Positions 4,365 through 60,890 of a DNA stretch of 64,000 nt are shown one piece after another. The translations under genes were made by a program, and so were the position numbers. The number at the start of each line of letters is the position of its first letter. Positions within the stretch are counted from its first letter, which is position 1. The notes beneath the pieces were generated by a model. It was not told where the DNA came from, did no database searches, and saw only the letters and a program-made list of their open reading frames with translations. The DNA is taken from IMG/VR virus record IMGVR_UViG_3300047496_000262, positions 15,849-79,848 of that record; one strand, given 5' to 3'. Origin of the DNA: a virus.

Positions 4365-5540
4365 TCAGGCCAGCACGGAAGCCTTGCGGTAGCGCTTGCT
4401 GAGAGTCCGCTCGTAGACCGAGGGGACCGGCGCTTCCGGTTCGGCCGCGGTCGGTTCCGCCGCCGGTTCATCCGCATCCGGGGTCGGATCGACGACCGCT
4501 TGCGGCTGGGCGGCCGCTTCTTCTTCCGCTTCCGGCACGGGTTCCGGCACGGGGGTCGCTTCCGGTGCCGGTGCCGGGGCCGCCAGACGCGGTGTCGTGC
4601 CCTCCAGAATCATCTGGATGCGCTTGGCATAGTCCGCGGCTTTTCTCAGGTGCTCATCGCGAATGACCCGGGGCAGATCCATGTTCTCCGCTTGGGCCAG
4701 ATTGCGGGTTTCGTGCGCGCGTAGTGCGGCCAGGGTGCCCTTCATGGCCGGTGCCAGCAAGGCCACCGTCTTTACTTCCACCGGCTTATCGTAGCGCAAC
4801 GGCATCAGGATCAGCGCCGCATTGGGCACCCCGCCGAAGGTGATGACCGTCGGATCCATCACATTGGATTGCCGCATCAGGTTGACCGAGGTGGCATTCA
4901 GGACGGTTGCCAGCGAGCCCACATCTTTCAGATAATTTTGGTTGAAGCTGACGAAATCCAGCGGTTCCGAATGTTCAGCACCGCTCATGTCGATGCCGCC
5001 GATGACGTGGTTGTAATCTGGGAAGGTGCCGTGCACCGGCGCCATCCGCAGCGCGATCTCGTTCCAGTAATCGGTGACCTCCAGCTTGGCCGCCTTGTCG
5101 CCATAGCCGATGCGGCAGAACACCTGCAGGCCGCGCTGGGTGCTTTCCTTCAAGAGCTTGAACCGGCCCTTGAACAGCCCCAACGGGACGATAACGCCCT
5201 GGTGCAACCACGACGGCAATTCGTCATCCACATCGGGATCGAACGAGGCGATGAACAGGCGATGCCCATCGGTCGAGACCACCCGCACCACACCGTCATG
5301 CGCGTGCAGAAAACAGCCGTTCAGGTAGTACCGGGTTTCTTCCGTCGAAGCGCATGACATTGCCGCTTCGATCAGGTGGAGCGGCGCGTTGATATAGGAC
5401 AAGGGCTGCACCCGCTCCGCTTGCGGCTCGACCGGGGCTTCCGCGACCGGGTCCTGGTCGGCGACAAGACGAAAATCGTCCGCACCATCATCTGTGATGG
5501 CAGCGGCAGCAACATTGGTATCGGCATCGAAGGGTGACAT
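4365..5540 (-). CDS. DNA polymerase III beta-clamp-like protein with a Pro/Ala/Glu-rich tail
   Basis: ASTEETRYYLNG, VVSTDGHRL, GTFPDYNHVI and SFNQNYL match DnaN middle and C-terminal domain motifs; domain I appears absent. Confidence 0.75.
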   Translation of the reverse strand: MSPFDADTNVAAAAITDDGADDFRLVADQDPVAEAPVEPQAERVQPLSYINAPLHLIEAAMSCASTEETRYYLNGCFLHAHDGVVRVVSTDGHRLFIASFDPDVDDELPSWLHQGVIVPLGLFKGRFKLLKESTQRGLQVFCRIGYGDKAAKLEVTDYWNEIALRMAPVHGTFPDYNHVIGGIDMSGAEHSEPLDFVSFNQNYLKDVGSLATVLNATSVNLMRQSNVMDPTVITFGGVPNAALILMPLRYDKPVEVKTVALLAPAMKGTLAALRAHETRNLAQAENMDLPRVIRDEHLRKAADYAKRIQMILEGTTPRLAAPAPAPEATPVPEPVPEAEEEAAAQPQAVVDPTPDADEPAAEPTAAEPEAPVPSVYERTLSKRYRKASVLA

Positions 5541-7222: not shown

Positions 7223-7576
7223 ATGGCATTGGCGTTGCGCGAGGGTATCAGCACCGATGATGTGAAGAAGGCGATATCGGCCAGTGGTGCCATCCTGACC
7301 CATGCGTCGCAATTGCTAAATGTCGAGCGGCGCGAGTTGGTCGATTATATTGAGACCCACAAATCGGTGCAGAAGCACATTGAGGAGACCAAGGACAAGT
7401 GCCTTGATCTGGCCGAGACCATGCTGATGCAACTGGTCAAGAAGGGCAATTTCCCCGCCCTGTGCTTCTATTTGAAATGCCAGGGCAAGGACCGCGGCTG
7501 GATTGAGAACGGCCCGGTGACCAGTACCGCGGTGCAGGTGAATGTGAGCATTTCCAAGGAAGAGGCGATGTTCTGA
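7223..7576 (+). CDS. terminase small subunit (HTH)
   Basis: HTH-like N-terminus plus LDLAETML..LVKKGN.PALCFYLKCQGKDRGW; lies directly before TerL. Confidence 0.7.
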   Translation: MALALREGISTDDVKKAISASGAILTHASQLLNVERRELVDYIETHKSVQKHIEETKDKCLDLAETMLMQLVKKGNFPALCFYLKCQGKDRGWIENGPVTSTAVQVNVSISKEEAMF

Positions 7577-7577
7577 G

Positions 7578-9545
7578 ATGCCCGCCCGTGGTGCCACGCT
7601 GGGCGAGCGGCGACTGGCCGCCAAGCGGCGGCAGGAGATCGAAGCCTATCTGCTGGACCATCCGGAGGAACGCGCCAAGCTGGATGCGGTGCAGGCAAGG
7701 CGCGCCGCGCTGTTACTGGCAAGGGATGAGCGCCGCAAGATCGCCCGCGACGCCAAGGTGGCCGCCCGCGAGGCCGCCAAGGCGCTGAAACCGGTCAGGC
7801 CCAAGCCGGAACCAAAACCCAAGCGCACCAAGAAAACCGCACCCGACCCGGATGCGCCGAAGCGCGGCCCCAAGCCCGACCCGAACTCTAAGGCCGGCAT
7901 CGCCCGGCGCGAGGCGGAGGAACGCAAGGCGCTCAGGGCGGCCACGCGGAAGATCGAACGCGCCCAGATCCGCCGCGAGAAAGCCGCCGCCCATGCGCGC
8001 CTGATGCGCCAGAAGGCCCGCGACCAACAGGCGGCGGAGGAAGCAGCGGCCGAACGCCTGAAAGCGGAAGCGCTGGCCGAGGAGGCCCGGATCCGCGAGG
8101 AGCGCGGGCTTGAGGAAGAATCGCCCCGCCAGCCCATCGCCGATAACGAGGGGGATCTCGACCCCAAATTCACGCCCGTGCGCGACGGCAAGAAGCTGCC
8201 CCTGCCGCCCGATGTCTGGACGCCCAATCCCGGGCAGAAAAAGGCGATCAAGCTGCTGACCGGCCGGCAGCGCCACACGCTGATCTATGGCGGGGCCCGG
8301 TCGGGCAAGACCACGCTGTTGCTGATCGCCATCGTGACACGGTGCCTGCTGGCGGCCGGATCCCGGCATGTGATCGTGCGCTCGACCTTTTCCGAGGTGA
8401 AGCGATCAGTGTGGGTGGATACGTTCTATAAGGTCATGCGGACCAAGTTCAAAGGCGTGACCTTCCGCGAGAACAAGCAGGACCAGTTTGTCGAGTTCGC
8501 CAATAAATCCACCATCTGGTTCATCGGCCTGGACAAGAAGGAGCGCGCGGAAAAGATCCTGGGCATGGAGTTCTGCACCATTTTCTGCAACGAGTGTTCG
8601 CAGATCGCATATCCATCGGTGATGCTGGCGCTGACCCGGTTGGCGCAGGTGTGCTTTAAGGCCAATGGCGAGGTTCTGCCCCAGCGGGCCTATTACGATC
8701 TGAACCCGGCCGGCACGCAGCACTGGACCTATCTGATGTTCGTCTTGAAGATGGACCCGCTGGACAAGCGCCGGGTGCTGGATGAGCCGGACGATTATCA
8801 GTACACCACGATCAACCCCAGCCAGAACGTGGCGAACCTGGATCCGAAATTCCTGCAATCGCTGGAACGGATGCCGCCGCGGTATCGCGCCCGGTTCTTT
8901 GAGGGCACCTACCAGAAGGAAATCGACGGCCAGCTATGGACCATCGAGGCGCTGGCAAAGGCGCGCTGCCAGCCCGAGGACGTGCCGCCCGGCTATAAGC
9001 GCATCGTGGTCGCGGTCGATCCCTCCGGTGCCGATGGCAGCGAGGAGAAGCGGTCGGATGCGATCGGCATCGTGGTGGCCGGCCTGGGCTATGACGATAT
9101 CGCCTATGTGCTGGAGGATGCGACGATGACCGGCGGCCCGGCGGATTGGAGCCGGGTGGTGATCCGGCTTTACGATCGATGGAACGCCGACCGGATTGTG
9201 GCGGAATCGAATTTCGGCGGCGAGTTGGTGCGCTATACCATCAAGACCCGGGACCGGCTGGCGAATGTGCATCTGGTGCGGGCCAGCAAGGGCAAGGTGG
9301 TGCGGGCCGAACCGGTTTCGACGCTCTACTTCGCCCCGCTGGAGAATGTGCGCCATGTGGGCGAGTTTCCGGAACTGGAGGAGGAGTTGCTGAACTTCTC
9401 CACCGCGGGCTATCAGGGCAGCCGCAGCCCGAACCGGGCGGATGCGCTGGTCTGGGCCTTGTCGGATCTGATGGTGCAGGGCCGGCCCCATTGGGCCACC
9501 GAGCGCCCGCCGCAGCCCCGGTCGATCCCGATCTTTGCCCGGTGA
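7578..9545 (+). CDS. terL: terminase large subunit with a ~200-aa charged N-terminal extension
   Basis: Walker A GGARSGKT, Walker B IFCNECSQ, coupling motif DLNP, nuclease motifs VVAVDPS, AESNFGG and SPNRADALVW. Confidence 0.93.
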   Translation: MPARGATLGERRLAAKRRQEIEAYLLDHPEERAKLDAVQARRAALLLARDERRKIARDAKVAAREAAKALKPVRPKPEPKPKRTKKTAPDPDAPKRGPKPDPNSKAGIARREAEERKALRAATRKIERAQIRREKAAAHARLMRQKARDQQAAEEAAAERLKAEALAEEARIREERGLEEESPRQPIADNEGDLDPKFTPVRDGKKLPLPPDVWTPNPGQKKAIKLLTGRQRHTLIYGGARSGKTTLLLIAIVTRCLLAAGSRHVIVRSTFSEVKRSVWVDTFYKVMRTKFKGVTFRENKQDQFVEFANKSTIWFIGLDKKERAEKILGMEFCTIFCNECSQIAYPSVMLALTRLAQVCFKANGEVLPQRAYYDLNPAGTQHWTYLMFVLKMDPLDKRRVLDEPDDYQYTTINPSQNVANLDPKFLQSLERMPPRYRARFFEGTYQKEIDGQLWTIEALAKARCQPEDVPPGYKRIVVAVDPSGADGSEEKRSDAIGIVVAGLGYDDIAYVLEDATMTGGPADWSRVVIRLYDRWNADRIVAESNFGGELVRYTIKTRDRLANVHLVRASKGKVVRAEPVSTLYFAPLENVRHVGEFPELEEELLNFSTAGYQGSRSPNRADALVWALSDLMVQGRPHWATERPPQPRSIPIFAR

Positions 9546-9575
9546 CATGGACAGTTGAAACCGAAGGAGACAGTG

Positions 9576-9887
9576 ATGCGCCGGTTTATGATTATGTACG
9601 ACGTGCCGGATGATTATCCGGAGATGAAAGGCATCCAGACGCTGGCGACCGAATTGTACGAGCGGGACTGGATGCCGATACACCAGGATTCGGGTGAAAT
9701 GGCAATCATGTTTGGCACAAAGGACATAAGATTTAGATGGTCTATGACCCAACTCTCAACTGATTCATTCCCTCCAGAGTATCTCGCAGGCTTGATGAAT
9801 AAGAATCTGGATCTCACTCAAGAGGCTGCCGAGCAGAACCGGTTATTGGGTATAGATGCCGCGCCGGACTTCCCCAGCAAAGCCTGA
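9576..9887 (+). CDS. hypothetical protein
   Basis: GAAGGAG RBS; the 3' half is AT-richer than its neighbours. Confidence 0.55.
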   Translation: MRRFMIMYDVPDDYPEMKGIQTLATELYERDWMPIHQDSGEMAIMFGTKDIRFRWSMTQLSTDSFPPEYLAGLMNKNLDLTQEAAEQNRLLGIDAAPDFPSKA

Positions 9888-10161
9888 TCCCATCCTTTTG
9901 CGCTTGGCCCAGGTGCAGAAGGACGCAAATGGCTATTTCCAGCGGGCGATGCGGCGCGAGAATGCCCCGACCGAGCGCATCGGCTGGGAGATGCGCGAGT
10001 TCCGCAAGGCGCTGATCGACCGGCAACCTCTGGTGCAATTGAGGATTCTGGAGAAGTACCGATCCCGGATGCGCGAGTGGTATTTCGCGCCCGAACGCCG
10101 CTTTGCCGGCATGGCGCGGGGCGAGCCAGCGGAAGATCCGGCCGCGGCATCGAAACGCTGA
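9856..10161 (+). CDS. hypothetical protein
   Basis: 101-aa ORF with phage-like codon usage, converging on the pentamer array. Confidence 0.55.
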   Translation: MPRRTSPAKPDPILLRLAQVQKDANGYFQRAMRRENAPTERIGWEMREFRKALIDRQPLVQLRILEKYRSRMREWYFAPERRFAGMARGEPAEDPAAASKR

Positions 10162-10163
10162 TA

Positions 10164-10540
10164 CCGCGGCCGGAAGGTGCTTGAGAGACAGGACCTGCCG
10201 CACCGAACCCGGCCCGACCCCGCCGCGCCCCACCTTGACTGCATGACCAGGACGCGCCGCGACGTAACGAGCCTTGACCCACCACGACCGCCCTGACTCG
10301 CCTTAACCGGCCAAGCACACCTCGCCTCGACCGCCAGACCGTGACGCGACAGACAAGGCCTAGACCCACCTTGACTGCCGAACCCGGAACAAACACGACG
10401 GGCCCGGCCAAAACAAGCCCTGACCGCCTTGACGGTCGCACCGGAACGCGCCTCGACACGCCATACCTCAACGTGCCCCACCTTGCCTGAACCCACCTCA
10501 ACACACCAAATTTGGACCGTCTAACCTTCCTTGACCGCGG
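10164..10540 (-). ncRNA. pentameric G(G/U)Y-NN repeat array 1 (candidate multi-guide RNA, VIPR-like) enclosed by a long-range stem
   Basis: The plus strand parses as about 58 R(C/A)C-NN pentamers with GACY-GC phase breaks at 10237, 10286, 10329, 10373 and 10422. The flanks 10164-10191 and 10517-10540 are complementary on the minus strand. Confidence 0.75.
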
Positions 10541-10543
10541 CTC

Positions 10544-10861
10544 CTAAGCCGCCATATCCGCCTCATTATCCGGCGGATCCTGCTCCGACCCGTCGTCGTC
10601 ACCGCGTTGAATCGCGCGGATTTCGGCGTCGATGCCGGTAATTTGTTGCACCAGAAGCGCGCGGTTGCATCTCAGCCGGCCCAGCAGAAGTTCGTTTAGC
10701 GCCATGATAGTACGAACGTACACCGGAACCGGCAGATCGCCGCTGACCCATCGATAAACCGTGTTCAGGGCACAACCGGCCTGGGCGCCCAGTTGCCGGC
10801 GGCTGATGCCCAGCGTCTTCAGCGCGGCATTCAGCGATTTTCCATCGGTGATCGGGCTCAT
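10544..10861 (-). CDS. XRE/Cro-family HTH protein
   Basis: LNAALKTLGISRRQLGAQAGCALNTVYRWVSGDLPVP. Confidence 0.8.
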   Translation of the reverse strand: MSPITDGKSLNAALKTLGISRRQLGAQAGCALNTVYRWVSGDLPVPVYVRTIMALNELLLGRLRCNRALLVQQITGIDAEIRAIQRGDDDGSEQDPPDNEADMAA

Positions 10862-11073
10862 GATGGTCCTTCCCCGGTGGCGTACCGCAACGACGTGATC
10901 GTAAAGGCCGATGGCCCGACCCTGATGCCGCCCAGCATTTCGGCCGGCACCAGCGGATTGATGCCGGCACCGGCCTTGTTGGCGACCTCGACCGCGCCCA
11001 GGAGCGTGGCGGCCAGACCGACGGTGCGGCCGTCCAGGACAACCCGGCGGATGCGTTCTGCCCGGGCGCTCAT
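10858..11073 (-). CDS. hypothetical protein
   Basis: MSARAERIRRVV..., ATGA-coupled on both sides. Confidence 0.55.
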   Translation of the reverse strand: MSARAERIRRVVLDGRTVGLAATLLGAVEVANKAGAGINPLVPAEMLGGIRVGPSAFTITSLRYATGEGPS

Positions 11074-11276
11074 GCCGCCTGTTCCAGGGCTTCGGCCAGG
11101 GCGTACCAGCCGGCGATATGGCGGAGGTCCATGGTGATGACCTGGGCGTCGTCCGTGGTCAGACGGCCCATCGCGTAGCGCCACGCCATGCGGAAGCGAT
11201 TGGCCTTGTGGGCGACGCGCTGGCGGAGATGCCAAAGCTGATACTGCACCTCGCGGAGCGGGGGATTGTGAATCAT
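11070..11276 (-). CDS. hypothetical protein
   Basis: 68-aa ORF downstream of the 11347-11375 promoter. Confidence 0.55.
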   Translation of the reverse strand: MIHNPPLREVQYQLWHLRQRVAHKANRFRMAWRYAMGRLTTDDAQVITMDLRHIAGWYALAEALEQAA

Positions 11277-11346
11277 AGCATCGTTGCCTTTCCTGTTGAT
11301 TTCTCAAGGCCGCGTCGTGCGGCGATGAGGCGAGAATCGCGGATTA

Positions 11347-11375
11347 GGTCTATCAAGGATTTCGCGCGAGCGCAA
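11347..11375 (-). promoter_or_regulatory. putative promoter for the small-gene/HTH/array-1 transcript
   Basis: TTGCGC-17 nt-TAGACC; shares TTGCGYTCGCGCGAAA with the 5609-5637 promoter. Confidence 0.5.
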
Positions 11376-11382
11376 GTATTTT

Positions 11383-11796
11383 CTATGACGCGCACATCTC
11401 CGCGGCACAGCCCACCTCGCTGTGGAGCGTGACCGAACGCTGCTGCCATCTTCCCTCCCGGCGGCCGGCGCGGGCGTCATCGTCGAAGCGGATGCCTTCC
11501 GGCCAGACACCGGGATTCCGGGGCGGGATCAGGTTGGGCGGGCGCACCCGTTCCGCCTTGATATCGGCGGCATAGCTGGCCCGAACCTTGGTCATGGTCT
11601 GGGCCAGGATGGCGCGGCGGATCTCCTTGCTTTTGACCAGCTTCATCCGCTGCGCGACATGGACCAGCCCGCCCATGGTGAGCACGAAGGGGTGACATTT
11701 AGCGTTGATCATCGGCAGCAGCACCGAGTTGGGCGTATCGCGATAATGTTCGGCCACCATCGCGTCGATCAGCGGTTTCAGTTGCAGCCGATCCAT
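11383..11796 (-). CDS. hypothetical protein
   Basis: 137-aa ORF coupled to the upstream HTH gene. Confidence 0.6.
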   Translation of the reverse strand: MDRLQLKPLIDAMVAEHYRDTPNSVLLPMINAKCHPFVLTMGGLVHVAQRMKLVKSKEIRRAILAQTMTKVRASYAADIKAERVRPPNLIPPRNPGVWPEGIRFDDDARAGRREGRWQQRSVTLHSEVGCAAEMCAS

Positions 11797-12272
11797 CAGC
11801 CGGCCCCCAGATTCGCAATGGCGCGCGAGTATTTATTCCAGGAGGCCGCGACCGAGATCACATGGGCGGGATCACGGCCCAGGATCCGTTGGCGCAATTC
11901 CCACCGGATGATGATGTCGCGTTCCTTGCGGGATCGGATGGATTGGAAAGGCTCCATCAAAGCCCGCATGTCGGTGATGCCGGCCAACTCGGCCAAGTCA
12001 TCAATATCGGTGGTGCTCTCCACCAGCGCGCGGACCCGATCAATGTCCGATATCCGTTTCGATTTGATGAGCATCGGCACCTCCTCTGCACCGTCACTTT
12101 CCTGCCGGCGGCGCATCAGCGCCTCGACCGCCAATTGGACCGCGCGCGATATGGTGACATGACAATTCTCGTACATGCAAACCGTTATTCTGGTGACGCC
12201 CAGGGCTTGCGCGAACAGGCGCTGGGTCAGGCCCAGATCGTGCCGGCACTGCCGAATCTCCGCCCCGGTCAT
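11796..12272 (-). CDS. XRE-family HTH transcriptional regulator
   Basis: MTGAEIRQCRHDLGLTQRLFAQALGVTRITVCMYEN. Confidence 0.8.
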   Translation of the reverse strand: MTGAEIRQCRHDLGLTQRLFAQALGVTRITVCMYENCHVTISRAVQLAVEALMRRRQESDGAEEVPMLIKSKRISDIDRVRALVESTTDIDDLAELAGITDMRALMEPFQSIRSRKERDIIIRWELRQRILGRDPAHVISVAASWNKYSRAIANLGAG

Positions 12273-12330
12273 CGGATCCCCGGCGTCCAGATGCGGCGGT
12301 AACTCGGTCGTGCCCAGCCGCAACCGTTTA

Positions 12331-12367
12331 CGAATCGCCAAAACGGGCCTCCGAATCGCCAAAACGG
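12331..12367. repeat. 16-bp direct repeat CGAATCGCCAAAACGG x2 (21-bp period)
   Basis: Copies at 12331-12346 and 12352-12367, upstream of the HTH gene. Confidence 0.8.
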
Positions 12368-12380
12368 TGGTTGCGATCAG

Positions 12381-12689
12381 TCATGATGCGTCACGGCATA
12401 GCACCAGGGCGGGGTGATCCGGCGGGACCCCGTTGGCAATCGCCATCGAACGGAAGTCTGGATAGATCGGCACCGTTGGACTTAATAAATTGTCCTTCTG
12501 GAGTCGTTGGCGAAAGACGCCGCAATAAGAGTACGGATCACGCGGGCTGGCCGGGCAGTGGATGTCCGCGACCCCATGTTTGTCCAACAATGTGGCGATG
12601 CGGATAAACTCCTCAAGCGGAATTGTTCCGGTCGGAAAATCCATACGCCACGGGCAGTGTTGGCACGGCCAATATCCATTTCCGCTCAT
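12381..12689 (-). CDS. Cys-rich hypothetical protein (PCxxCPWR)
   Basis: MSGNGYWPCQHCPWR...HC...YCG, likely metal-binding. Confidence 0.6.
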   Translation of the reverse strand: MSGNGYWPCQHCPWRMDFPTGTIPLEEFIRIATLLDKHGVADIHCPASPRDPYSYCGVFRQRLQKDNLLSPTVPIYPDFRSMAIANGVPPDHPALVLCRDAS

Positions 12690-13324
12690 TGCGCTCGTTG
12701 CTCCATTTTGGCCGCCTGCTGGACCCGGACCATCTTGCGGTACCGGCCGCGGCGTTCCGAGCCCTTTTTGCCAGGCTTGTCCCAATCGTGGCCGTCCGCT
12801 TCGCAGAGAATGCGGGCGGCGGCGTCGAGCGCTTGCGATGCGGCCCGTTGGATCTCTGCGCGTTGCTTCATCTCCGCATAGGCCGCCTCGCGGGCTTCTG
12901 CTTCCGCCTGTTGCTTGGCGGCGATCCGCGCCATGTCGCGCTTCATCCGGGCCGGCGGCTTGATCTGGAAACCCGCCATGATGGCGACGGCCAATTCCCG
13001 CCAGGACCGATAGGATGTCTGGTCCGGCGACGATGTATAGCGCGGTTCGCGGGTGAAGCCTTGGCCCAGATCGGTCCGCCATTCGTAATCGGTCTCTTCC
13101 GCGCGGTCCCAAATGTCGGACACGCGCCACGGGTTTGATGCCGGGTTAGGATGATTGCTGATGCGGAGCGACACCGGCACCGCGTCGCCCTCGGTGCGAT
13201 CATGTTCCGAGCGGTAGATATAGAGATAGGCCGATCGGCTTCGACGCGATCGGTTCATCTCCACATAGAGCCCAGCGCCGCGGAAAGCGGCGCTGAACCA
13301 AGCGACGGGCGCCAGATCGGTCAT
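12686..13324 (-). CDS. hypothetical protein
   Basis: MTDLAPVAWF...SAYLYIY...LRISNHP; coupled by ATGA overlaps. Confidence 0.6.
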   Translation of the reverse strand: MTDLAPVAWFSAAFRGAGLYVEMNRSRRSRSAYLYIYRSEHDRTEGDAVPVSLRISNHPNPASNPWRVSDIWDRAEETDYEWRTDLGQGFTREPRYTSSPDQTSYRSWRELAVAIMAGFQIKPPARMKRDMARIAAKQQAEAEAREAAYAEMKQRAEIQRAASQALDAAARILCEADGHDWDKPGKKGSERRGRYRKMVRVQQAAKMEQRAQ

Positions 13325-13617
13325 GCGACGCTCCGCCGCTTGGCCTTGCGCTGCACGTACATCCATTCCGGTTGCCAGCATGCCGCCTCATAGCGTGTCG
13401 AGCCCTTGCGCATCCGGATTGAGGCGAAATTCATGGGCCCGAACATATCGCAGGCCGTGACCTTGACCCAGTTCAGCGCCTCTTCCCGTGTGGCGAAGCG
13501 CTGGCCGGTGATCTGGTCGGTTTCCAGATCTAAGATCTTGCCCGCCCAATCGTCGTCAACCGTCTCGAAGACGGCGACACTGGCGACATGCGCGCGGCCT
13601 TGGATGGTTCTGACCAT
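13321..13617 (-). CDS. hypothetical protein
   Basis: MVRTIQGRAHVASV..., in the packed leftward operon. Confidence 0.55.
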   Translation of the reverse strand: MVRTIQGRAHVASVAVFETVDDDWAGKILDLETDQITGQRFATREEALNWVKVTACDMFGPMNFASIRMRKGSTRYEAACWQPEWMYVQRKAKRRSVA

Positions 13618-13627
13618 GATCCGCCCC

Positions 13628-13843
13628 CTACCAATCGAACGCGGTGCAGATCGGGCCGCAGCCCGATGCACGGCAGTTGTGCAGGCGGATCCATCGGGTC
13701 CGCTCGACCTCGGCGGCTTTCCGCATACTGCCGGACCATTGGACGGGCTGGGCGCCGGCCAGCAATTCATCGCAGCGCGGGCATTGGCCCGGCGGCGCCT
13801 TGCGGCCGAATACCGGCCCGCCGCATGTGTGTTTCGTGGTCAT
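13628..13843 (-). CDS. small Cys/His-rich phage protein
   Basis: MTTKHTCGGPVFGRK..CPRCDELLAG...HNC..CGPICTAFDW; AAAGGAAAC RBS. Confidence 0.7.
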   Translation of the reverse strand: MTTKHTCGGPVFGRKAPPGQCPRCDELLAGAQPVQWSGSMRKAAEVERTRWIRLHNCRASGCGPICTAFDW

Positions 13844-15248: not shown

Positions 15249-15746
15249 TTAGGCGGCGATGCCGATCTGGATTTCCATGGCCGCCGGATCAGCGGCCATC
15301 AGGATGCGGTCTTCGATATCCGCCAGATCGTCGTCGAGGATCCAGGCGGCGATCAGCGCATCGTGCAGCGAATGCTTGGTGACCGCTTCCGGCCCCTGAT
15401 AGGCCACCGCCTGATAGTGCGAGCGTACCTTGTGATTCGGGAAACGCTCGGTGGTGAGCCCATGACGGGCTTTACGCCGCTGCTCCAGATAGTGCCGCAC
15501 CATGCGGCCGCGGAACTCGTCCCGTTCCGCTTCGTTCAGAACGCTGGCGAAGTACATCGCATCGCCCAGCGCGGCGAAGGCGACGATGGCACCGGTTTTC
15601 CCGCAGTAATACGGGGTGTCGAAGCTAGGCCCGCAGAAGCGCTTGGCCGATAGGTTGGGCACCTTGCACAGTACCGCGAAGACGCCCTTGGTGCCGGGCT
15701 CCACCGGCGTCGGCACCGGGTTCGTCCAGCTATGGGTCTGGGTCAT
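15249..15746 (-). CDS. hypothetical protein
   Basis: MTQTHSWTNP..., GGAGG RBS, ATGA overlap. Confidence 0.6.
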   Translation of the reverse strand: MTQTHSWTNPVPTPVEPGTKGVFAVLCKVPNLSAKRFCGPSFDTPYYCGKTGAIVAFAALGDAMYFASVLNEAERDEFRGRMVRHYLEQRRKARHGLTTERFPNHKVRSHYQAVAYQGPEAVTKHSLHDALIAAWILDDDLADIEDRILMAADPAAMEIQIGIAA

Positions 15747-16369
15747 GACGGCCTCCGCAGGTTTTGGGCGGCGTTCCGGCCGGCGGGGGTGACGGCACCG
15801 GCCCGGTTCAGATAGCCGAAGCCGATCAGCGAGGCCTTTGCCATCTCCCAATCCGCCTCGGAGGGCGGCACCTTGTTATCGCGATCCCAGGCGCGATCTT
15901 CCGGATAGCCATGGGTGATATCGGCCACCGCCATCTGGTAGCGGTTCTTGCCCATATAGGAGGATTTGCGGCAGGCCGTGTAGATCAGCACCAGTTGCTC
16001 GACCGGGTGCAGATCCGCGGTGCTGAGCGGCACCAGATCTGCGGCGTTCCGGGGATGAATATGGAAGGTCAGCCCCATATCCTTGCCGCAGAACCACGAG
16101 CGGCGCACGGCGGCGAAACCGGGTTCCAGATGGATGGTCACGTCCCGGCGGCTGCGATCTGGCGGCGCGTTATGGTTGACGGCTTCCACTTCCTTGCCGT
16201 CGCTCATGCGGATGAGGGTCCAGATCTCGCGGGTGCCGCCATCGGATAGCCCGGCGGTCAGCGGGATGGTGACCTTTTCCGTCACCACGGCCTGGAATTT
16301 GGTTCCGGTATAGGTGCCGCGCAGGTGCTTTGGCACCAGGGCGGCATCAAGATAGGTTGGGCGTGTCAT
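15743..16369 (-). CDS. hypothetical phage protein
   Basis: MTRPTYLD...FCGKDMGLTFHIHP.NA...GYLNRAGAVTPAGRNA; AAAGGAAC RBS. Confidence 0.7.
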   Translation of the reverse strand: MTRPTYLDAALVPKHLRGTYTGTKFQAVVTEKVTIPLTAGLSDGGTREIWTLIRMSDGKEVEAVNHNAPPDRSRRDVTIHLEPGFAAVRRSWFCGKDMGLTFHIHPRNAADLVPLSTADLHPVEQLVLIYTACRKSSYMGKNRYQMAVADITHGYPEDRAWDRDNKVPPSEADWEMAKASLIGFGYLNRAGAVTPAGRNAAQNLRRPS

Positions 16370-16420
16370 TCCATCGGTTCCTTTCGTTTGGCTTCCAATC
16401 ACAGCTTGACTGGCAGTCAT

Positions 16421-56009: not shown

Positions 56010-56445
56010 GACGGCCATAACATGCCCCGCCGCACCCCGCCACAACTCGACCAACCACGACGGCCTTGCCAAGACTTGCCGCGCCCGACCCAACCGCGAC
56101 GCGACGAGCCCAAACAAGCCTTGACGCACCTCGACAGCCGAGCCCCGCCCGGCCTTACCCCGACATGCCGAGCCATGACGGCCTCGCCATACCTTGACGA
56201 GCCCTGCCTAAAACCGCCTGGACGGCCTCGCCAGGACTCGACGCACCAAGCCTCGACTCGCCGTGCCAAGCCTCGACTGCCATACCGTACCCCGCCTTAC
56301 CTCGCCTCGACAGGCCAGGACTATCCCAACCGTGACCGCCGTACCACGCCAGGCCGCACCAGGACGTGCCTCGCCATGCCTAAACAGAACCAGCCTAGAC
56401 CGCCATGATGCGCCAGGACACGCCGAGCCTCACCTTTCCGCGACA
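56010..56445 (-). ncRNA. pentameric G(G/U)Y-NN repeat array 2 (candidate multi-guide RNA, VIPR-like)
   Basis: 80 pentamers in 8 units (9,14,8,8,10,11,12,8) with GACN-GC phase breaks at 56010, 56059, 56133, 56177, 56221, 56275, 56334, 56398 and 56442. Confidence 0.8.
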
Positions 56446-56477: not shown

Positions 56478-56505
56478 ATTTTGCATTCGAGGTGCCCCCG
56501 GTCAA
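56478..56505 (-). promoter_or_regulatory. promoter pointing into array 2
   Basis: TTGACC-16 nt (ending TG)-CAAAAT; the -35 box overlaps the inverted repeat CAAGCGA-N5-TCGCTTG. Confidence 0.55.
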
Positions 56506-57741: not shown

Positions 57742-57817
57742 GTCGGGGTGGAGCAGATGGTAGCTCGTCAGGCCCATAACCTGAAGGTCAGAGGTTCGAG
57801 TCCTCTCCCCGCCACCA
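57742..57817 (+). tRNA. tRNA-Met(CAT), initiator-like, with atypical positions
   Basis: D arm GAGC/GCTC, anticodon arm TCAGG-CCCATAA-CCTGA, T arm AGAGG-TTCGAGT-CCTCT, encoded ACCA end. Confidence 0.88.
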
Positions 57818-59096: not shown

Positions 59097-60890
59097 ATGG
59101 GGACTGACGTGGCGGAGTCGCGCGAATTTCGGCCGGTATTCACAGAGGCGACGCCGGGCGACCTAGCCAGGCGTCATTGTGCCGGGATCGCGCCGGAGTC
59201 ACGTCTGGCCTTCGCACAGCGTTTCACCTTTACGATCGTCGAGGCGTGGTGGCGGGCACTCGGGCCGCGCTGGATGTTGCGCGAACTGCCGGGAGCGTCG
59301 GATCTGATCGGCCTGACGATGGAGGACGCCAATACGGCGTCACGAATCGGCGAGGGACTTGCGGCAAAGGAGCCGCGGCAAGCGGCGGGTTTGATCGGTG
59401 CAATCTACGCGGCCTGTCTCCCGGATACCTACCGGGCCGCCCATGGAATCTACTACACGCCACCAGCACTCGCGGATCGGCTTCTGCTGATGGCGGAAAA
59501 CGCCGGTGTCGCGTGGAGGACCGCAAGTGTGCTCGATCCCGCTTGTGGCTCGGCGGCGCTACTGCTGCCGGTGGTATCCCGGATGGTGGATGCACTGGCC
59601 GGAACTGATCCTGCCTCTATCCTGCAACAACTCGGGCTGCGGCTCAGAGGGATCGACATCGATCCGTTCGGCGCGTGGTTGGCGCAAGTGGCACTCGATT
59701 TCGCGCTTTTGAATCTGACCCACGCGGCAGGGCAGCCGGCACCACGGATGATCGAGAGCCGCGATAGTCTTGACCGGCGGCTGGCTGATCTCGAGCGGTT
59801 CGATCTGGTCATCGGGAATCCGCCTTACGGGCGGATTTCGCTGCCGCCAGCCCGCCGCGCGCTGTTCCAGCGCAGCGTTTACGGCCACGCCAATCTCTAC
59901 GGGCTGTTTACCGATGCCGCGCTGCGGTGGGTTAGGGTCGGCGGGGTCGTCGCCTATGTCACGCCCACCTCGATGCTGTCCGGCCTCTATTACCGGGCTC
60001 TGCGCACGCTCCTCGCGGCGGAGGCGCCGCCGCTGGAGGTGAATTTCGTGGGCGAGCGTAACAACGTGTTTGCCGATGTGCTGCAGGAGACGATGCTGGC
60101 GACCTATCGGCGAGGTGGCCGTGCTATCCCCGGCCGCGTGGGATTTCTCGATACCGGAACGACAGGTCAGGTCCGTCTTCAGAGGGGCGATACATTCACG
60201 CTGCCGGCTGATCCGAGCTCGCCCTGGCTGCTGCCGCGCTCGTCCGACCAGCTATCGCTCTCGCGACGCCTGCGCCTGATGCCGCATCGCCTCCGGGATT
60301 ATGCCTATGGCGTATCGACCGGGCCGCTCGTGTGGAACCGGTTCAAGCCGCAACTCGCAACGCTGAGGACCGACGATGCCTACCCGGTCATCTGGGCGGA
60401 GTCGGTGACTAGTGACGGGCGGTTCGTATGGCGGAGCGAAAAGCGCAACCATGCGCCTTGGTTCGTGGCGCGGCGTCCCAAGGATGATTGGCTGATCCTT
60501 GACCGGCCTTGCGTCCTGGTTCAGCGAACCACCGCGAAGGAACAGAAACGGCGTCTGATCGCCGCGGAACTGCCTGATGAGTTTATTCGCCCTCACGTGG
60601 CGGTCGTGGTGGAGAATCATCTCAACATGGTGCGGCCGGTATCGCCGGCGGCAACGCTGCCGGCGGCGGTGATCGCAGCACTGCTGAACAGTGCCGCCGT
60701 CGATGCCGCGTTCCGGTGCATCAATGGATCGGTGGCGGTGTCCGCGTTTGAACTGGAAGAACTGCCGCTGCCGGCGCCTTCGGTCTTGAACGCGCTGGCG
60801 CGGCTGATCTCCTGTGGGGGGCCGTCGCATAAGGTGGAGGCGTTGATTGCGGCGGCCTATGGGCGGGCGGATGCTGCCGCCGCTGCCTGA
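59097..60890 (+). CDS. type II N6-adenine DNA methyltransferase (Eco57I/BsuBI/PstI-like, gamma class)
   Basis: GIYYTP, VLDPACGS, GIDID, DLVIGNPPY, NLYGLF and VSTGPLVWNR. Confidence 0.9.
   Translation: MGTDVAESREFRPVFTEATPGDLARRHCAGIAPESRLAFAQRFTFTIVEAWWRALGPRWMLRELPGASDLIGLTMEDANTASRIGEGLAAKEPRQAAGLIGAIYAACLPDTYRAAHGIYYTPPALADRLLLMAENAGVAWRTASVLDPACGSAALLLPVVSRMVDALAGTDPASILQQLGLRLRGIDIDPFGAWLAQVALDFALLNLTHAAGQPAPRMIESRDSLDRRLADLERFDLVIGNPPYGRISLPPARRALFQRSVYGHANLYGLFTDAALRWVRVGGVVAYVTPTSMLSGLYYRALRTLLAAEAPPLEVNFVGERNNVFADVLQETMLATYRRGGRAIPGRVGFLDTGTTGQVRLQRGDTFTLPADPSSPWLLPRSSDQLSLSRRLRLMPHRLRDYAYGVSTGPLVWNRFKPQLATLRTDDAYPVIWAESVTSDGRFVWRSEKRNHAPWFVARRPKDDWLILDRPCVLVQRTTAKEQKRRLIAAELPDEFIRPHVAVVVENHLNMVRPVSPAATLPAAVIAALLNSAAVDAAFRCINGSVAVSAFELEELPLPAPSVLNALARLISCGGPSHKVEALIAAAYGRADAAAAA

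What the first reader, a model, noticed from the sequence alone, without database searches (positions are those of the whole stretch)
10164..10540. Second pentamer array, 46 kb away, closed by a long-range stem whose G-U pairs identify the transcribed strand
Seen: the same grammar as array 2, about 58 pentamers with phase breaks at ~10193, 10237, 10286, 10329, 10373 and 10422 (spacings 44,49,43,44,49), then a final run of 14 pentamers; the NN content is different. On the minus strand the 5' flank CCGCGGUC-AA-GGAAGGU-U-AGACGG (10540-10517) pairs with the 3' flank CUGUCU...ACCUUCC-GG-CCGCGG (10191-10164). That gives about 21 bp including two G-U wobbles that work only on the minus (G-rich) strand. 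The array starts 4 nt after the stop of an XRE-HTH gene. Inference: the array is co-transcribed with the small early operon (promoter 11347-11375) and released or stabilised by the enclosing helix, possibly an RNase III-type substrate. Two independent arrays with one grammar imply a shared trans-acting reader.
Basis: partly seen in the sequence, partly recalled or inferred. Interest (0 to 1): 0.9.

Follow-up and report, generated by a model that had tools for sequence, protein, structure and literature searches.

The report
Phage VIPR guide-RNA array, no reader gene
The pentamer array is real and is a guide-RNA array of a VIPR system, a CRISPR-like phage system first published in 2026, so it is one more member of a known kind; its one oddity is that no gene for the protein that reads such guides is found on this 80-kb phage contig.

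Summary
On the minus strand, 10185-10517 parses as G-(G/T)-(C/T)-N-N pentamers in units that overlap by one G. There are five full units of 17, 10, 9, 10 and 11 pentamers and three short remnants.

This grammar is that of VIPR vrRNAs in the "staggered array" form (bioRxiv 10.64898/2026.04.26.720920). The same grammar, including the GGC-N-G|TC junction, is in at least 118 IMG/VR contigs. In 100 of them a ~255-aa gene sits beside the array, and its profile matches the solved SUSP1 Vipr protein (E 2e-11). Arrays share that gene's strand in 130 of 131 cases. That, not G-U pairs, is what identifies the G-rich strand as the RNA.

This phage has three such arrays. No Vipr gene was found on the 79.8-kb contig, which is 88% complete. 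Array B is therefore "solo" by the published 20-kb criterion.

The flanking complementarity exists: 21 bp, p about 0.002. However, its register depends on the context folded, a local hairpin competes with it, and no such helix appears at the sister arrays or across 170 arrays in other phages.

No target was found. This scan had already found VIPR systems on other DNA.

The parts
10185..10517 (-). Array B: staggered vrRNA array. There are about 68 pentamer positions, of which 52 fit G-K-Y strictly.
   Evidence: Junction-aware parse and first parse. Runs of perfect pentamers are found only in the arrays.
10433..10517 (-). Unit B1: 17 pentamers, 15 well formed, including a perfect run of 14.
10424..10433 (-). 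Unit B2: 2-pentamer remnant (GTCAA GGCGG).
10375..10424 (-). Unit B3: 10 pentamers, 9 well formed.
10331..10375 (-). Unit B4: 9 pentamers, 8 well formed.
10288..10331 (-). Irregular 43-nt stretch holding two short runs of 4 and 5 pentamers. These are probably degenerate units.
10239..10288 (-). Unit B6: 10 pentamers, 9 well formed.
10185..10239 (-). Unit B7: 11 pentamers, all well formed. Its last two pentamers overlap the 3' arm of the claimed stem.
10517..10540 (-). 5' flank arm of the claimed long-range helix. It is itself a degenerate pentamer leader.
10164..10191 (-). 3' flank arm of the claimed long-range helix.
10140..10175 (.). Local GC-rich hairpin of about 15 bp that competes for the CCGCGG arm. 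It lies between the convergent transcription units.
   Evidence: sequence
10544..10861 (-). 105-aa HTH-like regulator gene immediately upstream of array B on the same strand.
   Evidence: weak HTH hits
11272..11299 (-). Sigma-70-like promoter candidate for the small minus-strand operon that ends in array B.
   Evidence: consensus match only
56012..56444 (-). Array C: sister staggered vrRNA array with 8 units of 9 to 15 pentamers.
56478..56505 (-). Promoter-like site (TTGACC, 16-nt spacer, CAAAAT) just upstream of array C on the G-rich strand.

Best explanation
Array B is a staggered vrRNA array of a VIPR (Viral Interference Programmable Repeat) system. It is transcribed from the minus strand, probably as the 3' end of the small HTH operon.

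In the published mechanism, one Vipr RAMP protomer binds each pentamer. Neighbouring protomers sequester the fixed G-(G/U)-Y triplet and present the NN dinucleotide. The NNs of one unit together pair with double-stranded DNA in the pattern NN-x-NN-x (the one-nucleotide skip rule), and this silences transcription of a competing mobile element.

Here each unit starts with GUC and ends with GGC-N-G. That last G is also the first G of the next unit. Each junction therefore shifts the register by one base and so delimits the guides; that the shift ends filament growth is my inference.

Array B encodes about five full-length guides (17, 10, 9, 10 and 11 repeats) and three short remnants. The reader protein is not encoded on the assembled contig. 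It is supplied either from the roughly 12% of the genome that was not assembled, or in trans by a co-resident VIPR-positive phage or prophage. Solo vrRNAs that work in trans are described in bioRxiv 10.64898/2026.10.15.759431.

Shown here: the grammar, the junction, the family-wide link to Vipr, and the strand. Inferred from the papers: binding, the skip rule and silencing.
For: Grammar and junction.

Occurrence elsewhere: the pattern (GKYNN)x3-GGCN-GTCNN-(GKYNN)x4-GKY has exact matches in at least 118 IMG/VR contigs with 35-71% GC. There, 371 phase breaks are 4 nt long and unit lengths of 24 to 79 nt are overwhelmingly 5n+4.

Link to Vipr: a ~255-aa ORF cluster lies next to the arrays in 96 loci, and 4 more loci carry truncated copies. 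Its profile hits PDB 36pp_D, 'SUSP1 Vipr protein', at E 2e-11 over the G-loop region. Arrays are on the same strand as that gene in 130 of 131 cases, downstream of it in 115, with a median gap of 77 nt.

Literature: GGY/NN repeats, 9-16 per vrRNA, the 1-nt skip rule, and staggered arrays with a 1-nt overlap. One protomer binds per repeat.

NN composition: N4 resembles codon position 1 (G 0.39 against 0.37). N5 resembles position 2 and not position 3. This is what guides against coding DNA with the skip at the wobble base would look like.

Expression: there is a promoter-like site on the G-rich strand upstream of array C. Metatranscriptome contigs cover 10417-10558 and the HTH gene; this is weak evidence.
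Against: No Vipr homologue was found on the 79,848-bp contig. The searches were:
- hmmsearch --max on the six-frame translation (best E 0.18, and that hit lies inside an array)
- hhalign against 343 ORFs (highest probability 3%)
- a motif search
- The genome search on the contig itself

The same profile does find vipr in three of five control records.

The usual accessory-gene clusters are also absent.

No target was found.

There is no direct RNA evidence for processed units.

GTY makes up 38% of the triplets here, rather than the canonical GGY. This is within the range of the same-grammar contigs (27%) and of the variants the paper lists (YNNNG).
Confidence: 0.88

Rival explanations
1. This is an ordinary VIPR-positive phage. 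The vipr gene, and perhaps a vap gene, lie in the part of the genome that was not assembled. The three arrays are dispersed guide arrays that serve the phage's own protein.
For: The contig is linear and 88% complete, and a ribonucleotide reductase gene is cut by its start. The fragment at the right end is not the missing reductase C-terminus, so real sequence is missing. In complete records, vipr can lie away from the fetched array locus (G001, G003).
Against: In other phages 98% of arrays lie within 1.5 kb of vipr. Here none of the three arrays does. Array B is at least 26 kb from either contig end, so it counts as solo by the published 20-kb rule.
Confidence: 0.4
2. This is a VIPR-null phage with solo arrays. 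The guides borrow, redirect or soak up the Vipr protein of a co-resident phage or prophage. That would be either hijacking of guides or counter-defence.
For: No Vipr and no usual accessory gene is on 79.8 kb. Another phage record, G004 (40 kb, 97% complete), carries a staggered array and also has no Vipr match. Solo vrRNAs on VIPR-null phages and satellites are documented in Enterobacteriaceae. The grammar and junction match those read by the Vipr type found beside staggered arrays.
Against: The contig is incomplete. No array unit matches any vipr gene, accessory gene or array in the 118 loci above shuffled controls. The host and its resident elements are unknown.
Confidence: 0.45
3. One reading: the array is a structured RNA domain closed by a long-range helix. 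The helix releases or stabilises it, for example as an RNase III substrate.
For: The flanks are complementary over 21 bp (-29.6 kcal/mol). The wider flanks give p = 0.002 against shuffles. The centroid fold of the minus strand closes the array, and the fold z-score is -3.1 against -0.7 for the plus strand.
Against: Only 7 of the 21 bp are likely in the ensemble, and these form on either strand. In a wider context the register changes and a local 15-bp hairpin takes one arm. Arrays A and C show no such helix (z = +0.3 and -0.1). Across 170 arrays in other phages the mean z is -0.06, and 0.6% fall below -3. No close relatives exist for a covariation test.
Confidence: 0.15
4. The arrays are decaying relics with no present function.
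For: There are three short or irregular units (2, 4 and 5 pentamers) and a few off-pattern pentamers. No reader and no target were found.
Against: The scaffold is intact in 15/17, 9/10, 8/9, 9/10 and 11/11 pentamers of the full units while the NN positions vary freely. All three arrays keep the same junction. Array C has its own promoter-like site.
Confidence: 0.07

Closest known systems
VIPR systems with staggered vrRNA arrays (bioRxiv 10.64898/2026.04.26.720920, fig. S18; structures in 10.64898/2026.04.26.720927)
   Same: The repeats are pentamers with a fixed G-rich triplet and a free NN. Full units hold 9-17 repeats. Neighbouring units overlap by 1 nt. The element is phage-borne, and the G-rich strand is the RNA strand.
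   Different: No vipr or vap gene lies next to any of the three arrays or anywhere on the contig. The second triplet base is U in 38% of repeats. Nothing here resembles the 3' pseudoknot tail of type II vrRNAs.
Solo vrRNAs of VIPR-null phages and satellites (bioRxiv 10.64898/2026.10.15.759431)
   Same: Guide arrays have no Vipr within 20 kb or on the contig. They would have to use a Vipr supplied from elsewhere.
   Different: The published cases carry 1-2 tailed type II vrRNAs, in SUSP1-like enterobacterial phages and their satellites. Here there are three dispersed staggered arrays with about 16 full units, in a 63% GC phage from a moss metagenome. In addition, the genome is incomplete.
CRISPR arrays and class 1 RAMP (Cas7) filaments
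   Same: A RAMP filament presents a guide RNA, with periodic flipped bases. The array encodes many guides.
   Different: There are no 23-50 nt direct repeats and no contiguous spacers. The guide information is non-contiguous, 2 nt in every 5. There are no cas genes.
TRAP binding sites, (G/U)AG triplets with 2-3 nt spacers (my own knowledge; considered before the VIPR lead)
   Same: Both have a 5-nt period made of a fixed triplet plus a free spacer, read by an oligomeric protein.
   Different: The triplet differs. These arrays are tens to hundreds of repeats long and have register-shifting junctions. They are associated with a RAMP protein, not with TRAP.

Membership tests
VIPR vrRNA array | Tandem pentamers with a conserved GGY (or related) triplet alternating with NN; at least 4 repeats, typically 9-16 per vrRNA | tested here: met
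   The G-K-Y-N-N parse gives full units of 17, 10, 9, 10 and 11 repeats. Triplet use is GGC 0.38, GGT 0.25, GTC 0.29 and GTT 0.09. The paper lists related consensus forms, including YNNNG.
VIPR vrRNA array | NN positions are hypervariable while the scaffold is conserved | tested here: met
   Within and between arrays A, B and C, all 16 dinucleotides occur and no guide is shared with any of 118 other loci. Variation among close relatives could not be tested because no close relative was found.
VIPR vrRNA array (staggered form) | Neighbouring vrRNAs overlap by 1 nt, so unit length is 5n+4 | tested here: met
   The junctions are GGC-N-G|TC and the spacings are 44 or 49 nt, plus one irregular 43. 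The same holds in the other phages. The published description is the fig. S18 legend.
VIPR system | A vipr gene (minimal RAMP with RRM core, G-loop and thumb) lies beside the arrays | tested here: not met
   There is no match on the 79.8-kb contig. The positive controls work. One basic ORFan of 208 aa was folded (pLDDT 90) and is not RAMP-like. The contig is 88% complete, so absence from the phage itself is not proven.
VIPR system | An accessory vap gene lies next to vipr | tested here: inconclusive
   The accessory clusters common next to staggered arrays have no match here. An HTH-like gene precedes array B, and HTH-like vaps exist in some types. Homology to a published vap was not tested.
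VIPR vrRNA array | The G-rich strand is transcribed and yields processed small RNAs | tested here: inconclusive
   Arrays share vipr's strand in 130 of 131 cases elsewhere. There are promoter-like sites. RNA-library contigs cover 10417-10558 only, and they cannot show strand or ends.
VIPR vrRNA array | Natural targets match the NN-x-NN-x (1-nt skip) rule | tested here: inconclusive
   Nothing exceeded shuffled controls or chance. The tools allowed only exact or seeded scans, and the host is unknown.
VIPR vrRNA array | Vipr binds the RNA and silences matching DNA | not testable with these tools
   This needs biochemistry or a reporter assay.
CRISPR array | Direct repeats of about 23-50 nt separated by contiguous spacers, usually with cas genes | tested here: not met
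   Tandem Repeats Finder and the parses show only 5-nt periodicity.
Rfam RNA families | A match at the family's gathering score | tested here: not met
   In the window only a tRNA reaches the gathering score, and nothing does in 9800-10900.

The most novel reading that the evidence does not exclude
The phage truly lacks vipr. It carries three dispersed solo staggered arrays (about 16 full guide units) whose RNAs load onto the Vipr protein of a rival phage or resident prophage, either to redirect it or to titrate it. Array B would be made early, as the tail of an HTH-regulator operon. This would extend the 'borrowed reader' strategy from enterobacterial SUSP1-like phages to an unrelated high-GC environmental phage and to the staggered array type.
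Probability: 0.35. Interest if true: 0.55.

Novelty: new member of a known kind. Interest (0 to 1): 0.35.

Why it matters
The finding shows that VIPR guide arrays can be recognised from raw sequence. It adds a high-GC phage from a moss metagenome whose arrays are scattered across the genome, away from any reader gene. If the phage really lacks Vipr, phages outside the Enterobacteriaceae also carry guides for someone else's effector, which bears on how widespread guide hijacking is in conflicts between phages. The kind of element itself has been published since April 2026, and this scan had already met it on other DNA. The element is therefore not a discovery in its own right.

Tried and rejected
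**Readings considered before the VIPR lead**
- I considered a TRAP-like RNA site, a Rho-binding C-rich RNA on the plus strand, G-quadruplexes, primase site arrays, R-loop origins and a CsrA sponge. All were dropped once the link to the Vipr protein was shown.
- Coding potential is rejected. Unit lengths of 5n+4 break every reading frame, and the long minus-strand ORF across the array is an artefact of low A content.
- A period-5 peak at genome 7341-7791 is a pentapeptide-repeat gene, not an array.
- Rfam gave nothing.

[quoted passage not shown] - Exact IMG/VR scans for the B1 core, B7 and B6 gave 0 hits.
- B3 gave 3 identical 36-38% GC contigs, which count as one independent hit. The skip base there is not at the wobble position, so I judged it chance.
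- The 16- and 18-base seeds of B1, extended locally, reached at most 24/34 and 26/34. This is within chance.
- No guide is shared with other phages.

**Relatives, host and contig ends**
- No blastn match was found in the phage collection.
- The terminase gave only relatives of 43% identity or less, in IMG/VR and in genomes of unrelated phyla. No covariation test and no host call was therefore possible.
- The genome search draws no relatives for a virus record.

**RNA evidence**
- Two metatranscriptome runs, apparently one data set filed twice, hold short contigs over parts of 7264-13764, including 10417-10558.
- Contigs cannot show strand, ends or level, and DNA carry-over is possible.
- The uncovered part, 10164-10416, says nothing either way.

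**Candidate divergent Vipr**
- The 208-aa protein encoded at 15743-16420 has no profile similarity to Vipr.
- It has a confident fold, but that fold has no significant PDB match.

Full report

The window is bases 15849-79848 of a 79,848-bp linear IMG/VR virus record that is 88% complete. Between two convergent genes lies a 380-bp stretch that is C-rich on the plus strand: G 159, C 89, T 86 and A 43 when read on the minus strand.

A dynamic-programming parse of the minus strand gives runs of G-(G/T)-(C/T)-N-N pentamers separated by register shifts. The shifts can be treated as a 1-nt overlap, in which the last G of GGC-N-G is also the first G of the next GTC-N-N. The array then falls into units at these positions:

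| Unit | Window position | Pentamers |
|---|---|---|
| B1 | 10433-10517 | 17 |
| B2 | 10424-10433 | 2 |
| B3 | 10375-10424 | 10 |
| B4 | 10331-10375 | 9 |
| (irregular) | 10288-10331 | 4 + 5 |
| B6 | 10239-10288 | 10 |
| B7 | 10185-10239 | 11 |

In the whole genome, runs of 6 or more perfect pentamers occur 12 times. All are on the minus strand and all lie within three arrays. These are array B, the array at window 56012-56444, and a third at genome 2096-2281, outside the window.

A period-5 Fourier scan picks out the two arrays in the window. It also picks out two coding period-15 repeats, one of which is a pentapeptide-repeat gene.

**2. What is it?**

Rfam has no match.

In those contigs, arrays of 15 to 161 pentamers are common. 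Phase breaks are 4 nt long in 371 cases. Unit lengths are overwhelmingly 5n+4 and peak at 44-49 nt.

Earlier notes of this scan named VIPR systems, and I checked the papers. VIPR vrRNAs consist of 9-16 GGY/NN repeats. The NNs pair with double-stranded DNA under a one-nucleotide skip rule. "Staggered arrays" have vrRNAs that overlap by 1 nt.

I then tested the link independently:
- Clustering all ORFs of the 118 loci gave one ~255-aa family present in 96 loci, plus 4 truncated copies at locus edges.
- A profile of 11 diverse members hits the PDB chain 36pp_D, "SUSP1 Vipr protein", at E 2e-11 over the G-loop region. It has no Pfam family.
- Arrays are on the same strand as this gene in 130 of 131 cases, downstream of it in 115, with a median gap of 77 nt.

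The grammar in the window is therefore that of VIPR guide arrays, and the G-rich strand is the RNA strand.

**3. The reader protein is missing here.**

None of the three arrays has a vipr neighbour. Array A lies between a 166-aa ORFan and a class II ribonucleotide reductase gene. Array B follows a 105-aa HTH-like gene. Array C stands alone behind a promoter-like site.

The Vipr model finds nothing in the six-frame translation. The best score is E 0.18, and that hit lies inside an array. The other searches were also negative:
- hhalign against 343 ORFs peaks at 3% probability.
- The invariant D-x-R-x-R...W motif is absent from any plausible protein.
- The genome tool finds nothing.

The same profile finds vipr in three control records. 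It also finds none in G004, a 40-kb, 97% complete phage that carries a staggered array inside an operon. Solo staggered arrays therefore exist elsewhere too.

One basic ORFan was tested as a possible divergent RAMP. It has 47 homologues and folds confidently (pLDDT 90), but it shows no profile or fold similarity to Vipr or Cas RAMPs.

The contig is incomplete. The reductase gene is cut by the contig start, and the right-end fragment is not its missing C-terminus. A vipr gene in the missing ~10 kb therefore cannot be excluded.

Array B is at least 26 kb from either contig end. It is "solo" under the published operational rule, which requires no Vipr within 20 kb.

**4. The long-range stem.**

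The complementarity is as described: 8+7+6 bp with two G-U pairs, at -29.6 kcal/mol. The wider flanks score -37.2 against -23.4 +/- 4.0 for shuffles, p = 0.002. The minus-strand fold is more stable than shuffles (z = -3.1; plus strand -0.7), and its centroid closes the array.

Four results count against a functional helix:
- In the ensemble, only the central GGAAGGU/ACCUUCC helix is likely. It forms equally on the plus strand, and the two segments carrying the G-U pairs have p < 0.05.
- With the array held single-stranded, as it would be if coated by protein, and with a wider context, a local ~15-bp hairpin at 10140-10175 captures the CCGCGG arm. GGAAGG then pairs further downstream, and only the AGACGG/CUGUCU segment remains.
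- Arrays A and C show no flank pairing.
- Across 170 arrays in other phages, flank pairing is indistinguishable from shuffles: mean z is -0.06 and 0.6% fall below -3.

No close relatives exist for a covariation test. I rate a functional enclosing helix at about 15%. It is not needed to identify the strand.

**5. Expression.**

Promoter-like sites lie on the minus strand at 11272-11299, upstream of the small operon, and at 56478-56505, upstream of array C.

The contig occurs in moss metagenomes. Two metatranscriptome runs, which look like one data set filed twice, hold short contigs over 10417-10558, 10649-10844 and 10914-11101, among other parts. This is only a weak hint that the HTH gene and the first unit are present as RNA.

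**6. Targets.**

N4 and N5 resemble codon positions 1 and 2 of this phage's genes and not position 3. This fits guides against coding DNA with the skip at the wobble base.

No target was found:
- No self-match and no match in 118 VIPR loci exceeded shuffled guides.
- Three exact IMG/VR scans were empty.
- One scan hit a single 36-38% GC sequence, present in three contigs and out of codon register. I judged it chance.
- Seed-and-extend scans in IMG/VR and in metagenomes stayed within chance.

The host could not be inferred.

**7. Verdict.**

This is a genuine VIPR staggered guide array. It is a kind published in 2026 and already met by this scan on other DNA.

The features particular to this instance are:
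- three arrays dispersed across the genome with no reader gene on 80 kb;
- a high share of GUY triplets;
- attachment of array B to an early HTH operon.

The enclosing-helix mechanism is not supported.

Noticed in passing
L120:7015-7986 (genome coordinates, outside the window), minus strand: A pentapeptide-repeat protein gene of about 323 aa with a very regular 15-nt repeat. It gives the strongest period-5 signal in the genome.
   Followed up: partly
L120:2-2086, minus strand: A class II (B12-type) ribonucleotide reductase large subunit with a LAGLIDADG intein-like insert. It is cut by the contig start. Array A lies immediately upstream of it.
   Followed up: partly
window 15743-16420, minus strand: A 208-aa member of a conserved family of hypothetical proteins, with 47 homologues in metagenomes. 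It has a confident predicted fold (pLDDT 90; beta-sandwich plus helical domain) with no significant PDB match.
   Followed up: partly
L101:7052-7248 (IMGVR_UViG contig of 40,080 bp, 97% complete): A staggered vrRNA array embedded in an operon of a nearly complete phage genome that has no match to the Vipr profile. This is a second candidate VIPR-null carrier of a solo array.
   Followed up: partly
G003:C1:1473-2123 (record of L043): The Vipr match lies in an open frame of 638 aa. This may be a fused or extended Vipr.
   Followed up: no
Phage records such as MW534375.1:10307-10969 (Gordonia phage ODay) and NC_051648.1:37397-37960 (Mycobacterium phage Donkeykong): tblastn with a Vipr of the staggered-array type finds homologues in 30 records of cultured Gordonia and Mycobacterium phages. 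All listed hits are annotated as hypothetical proteins.
   Followed up: no
window 57742-57814, plus strand: A phage-borne tRNA gene, 1.3 kb from array C.
   Followed up: no
window 59097-60890 (+), L120:2797-4173 (-) and window 4365-5540 (-): An Eco57I-like N6 DNA methylase, a C5 cytosine methylase and a DnaN-like sliding clamp are encoded by the phage.
   Followed up: no
L128:8246-8274, L129:2389-2417 and L130:7565-7593: There is an exact 20-of-20 match to the 1-nt-skip pattern of unit B3 in three identical 36-38% GC viral contigs. The skip base is at codon position 2, and I judged the match to be chance.
   Followed up: yes
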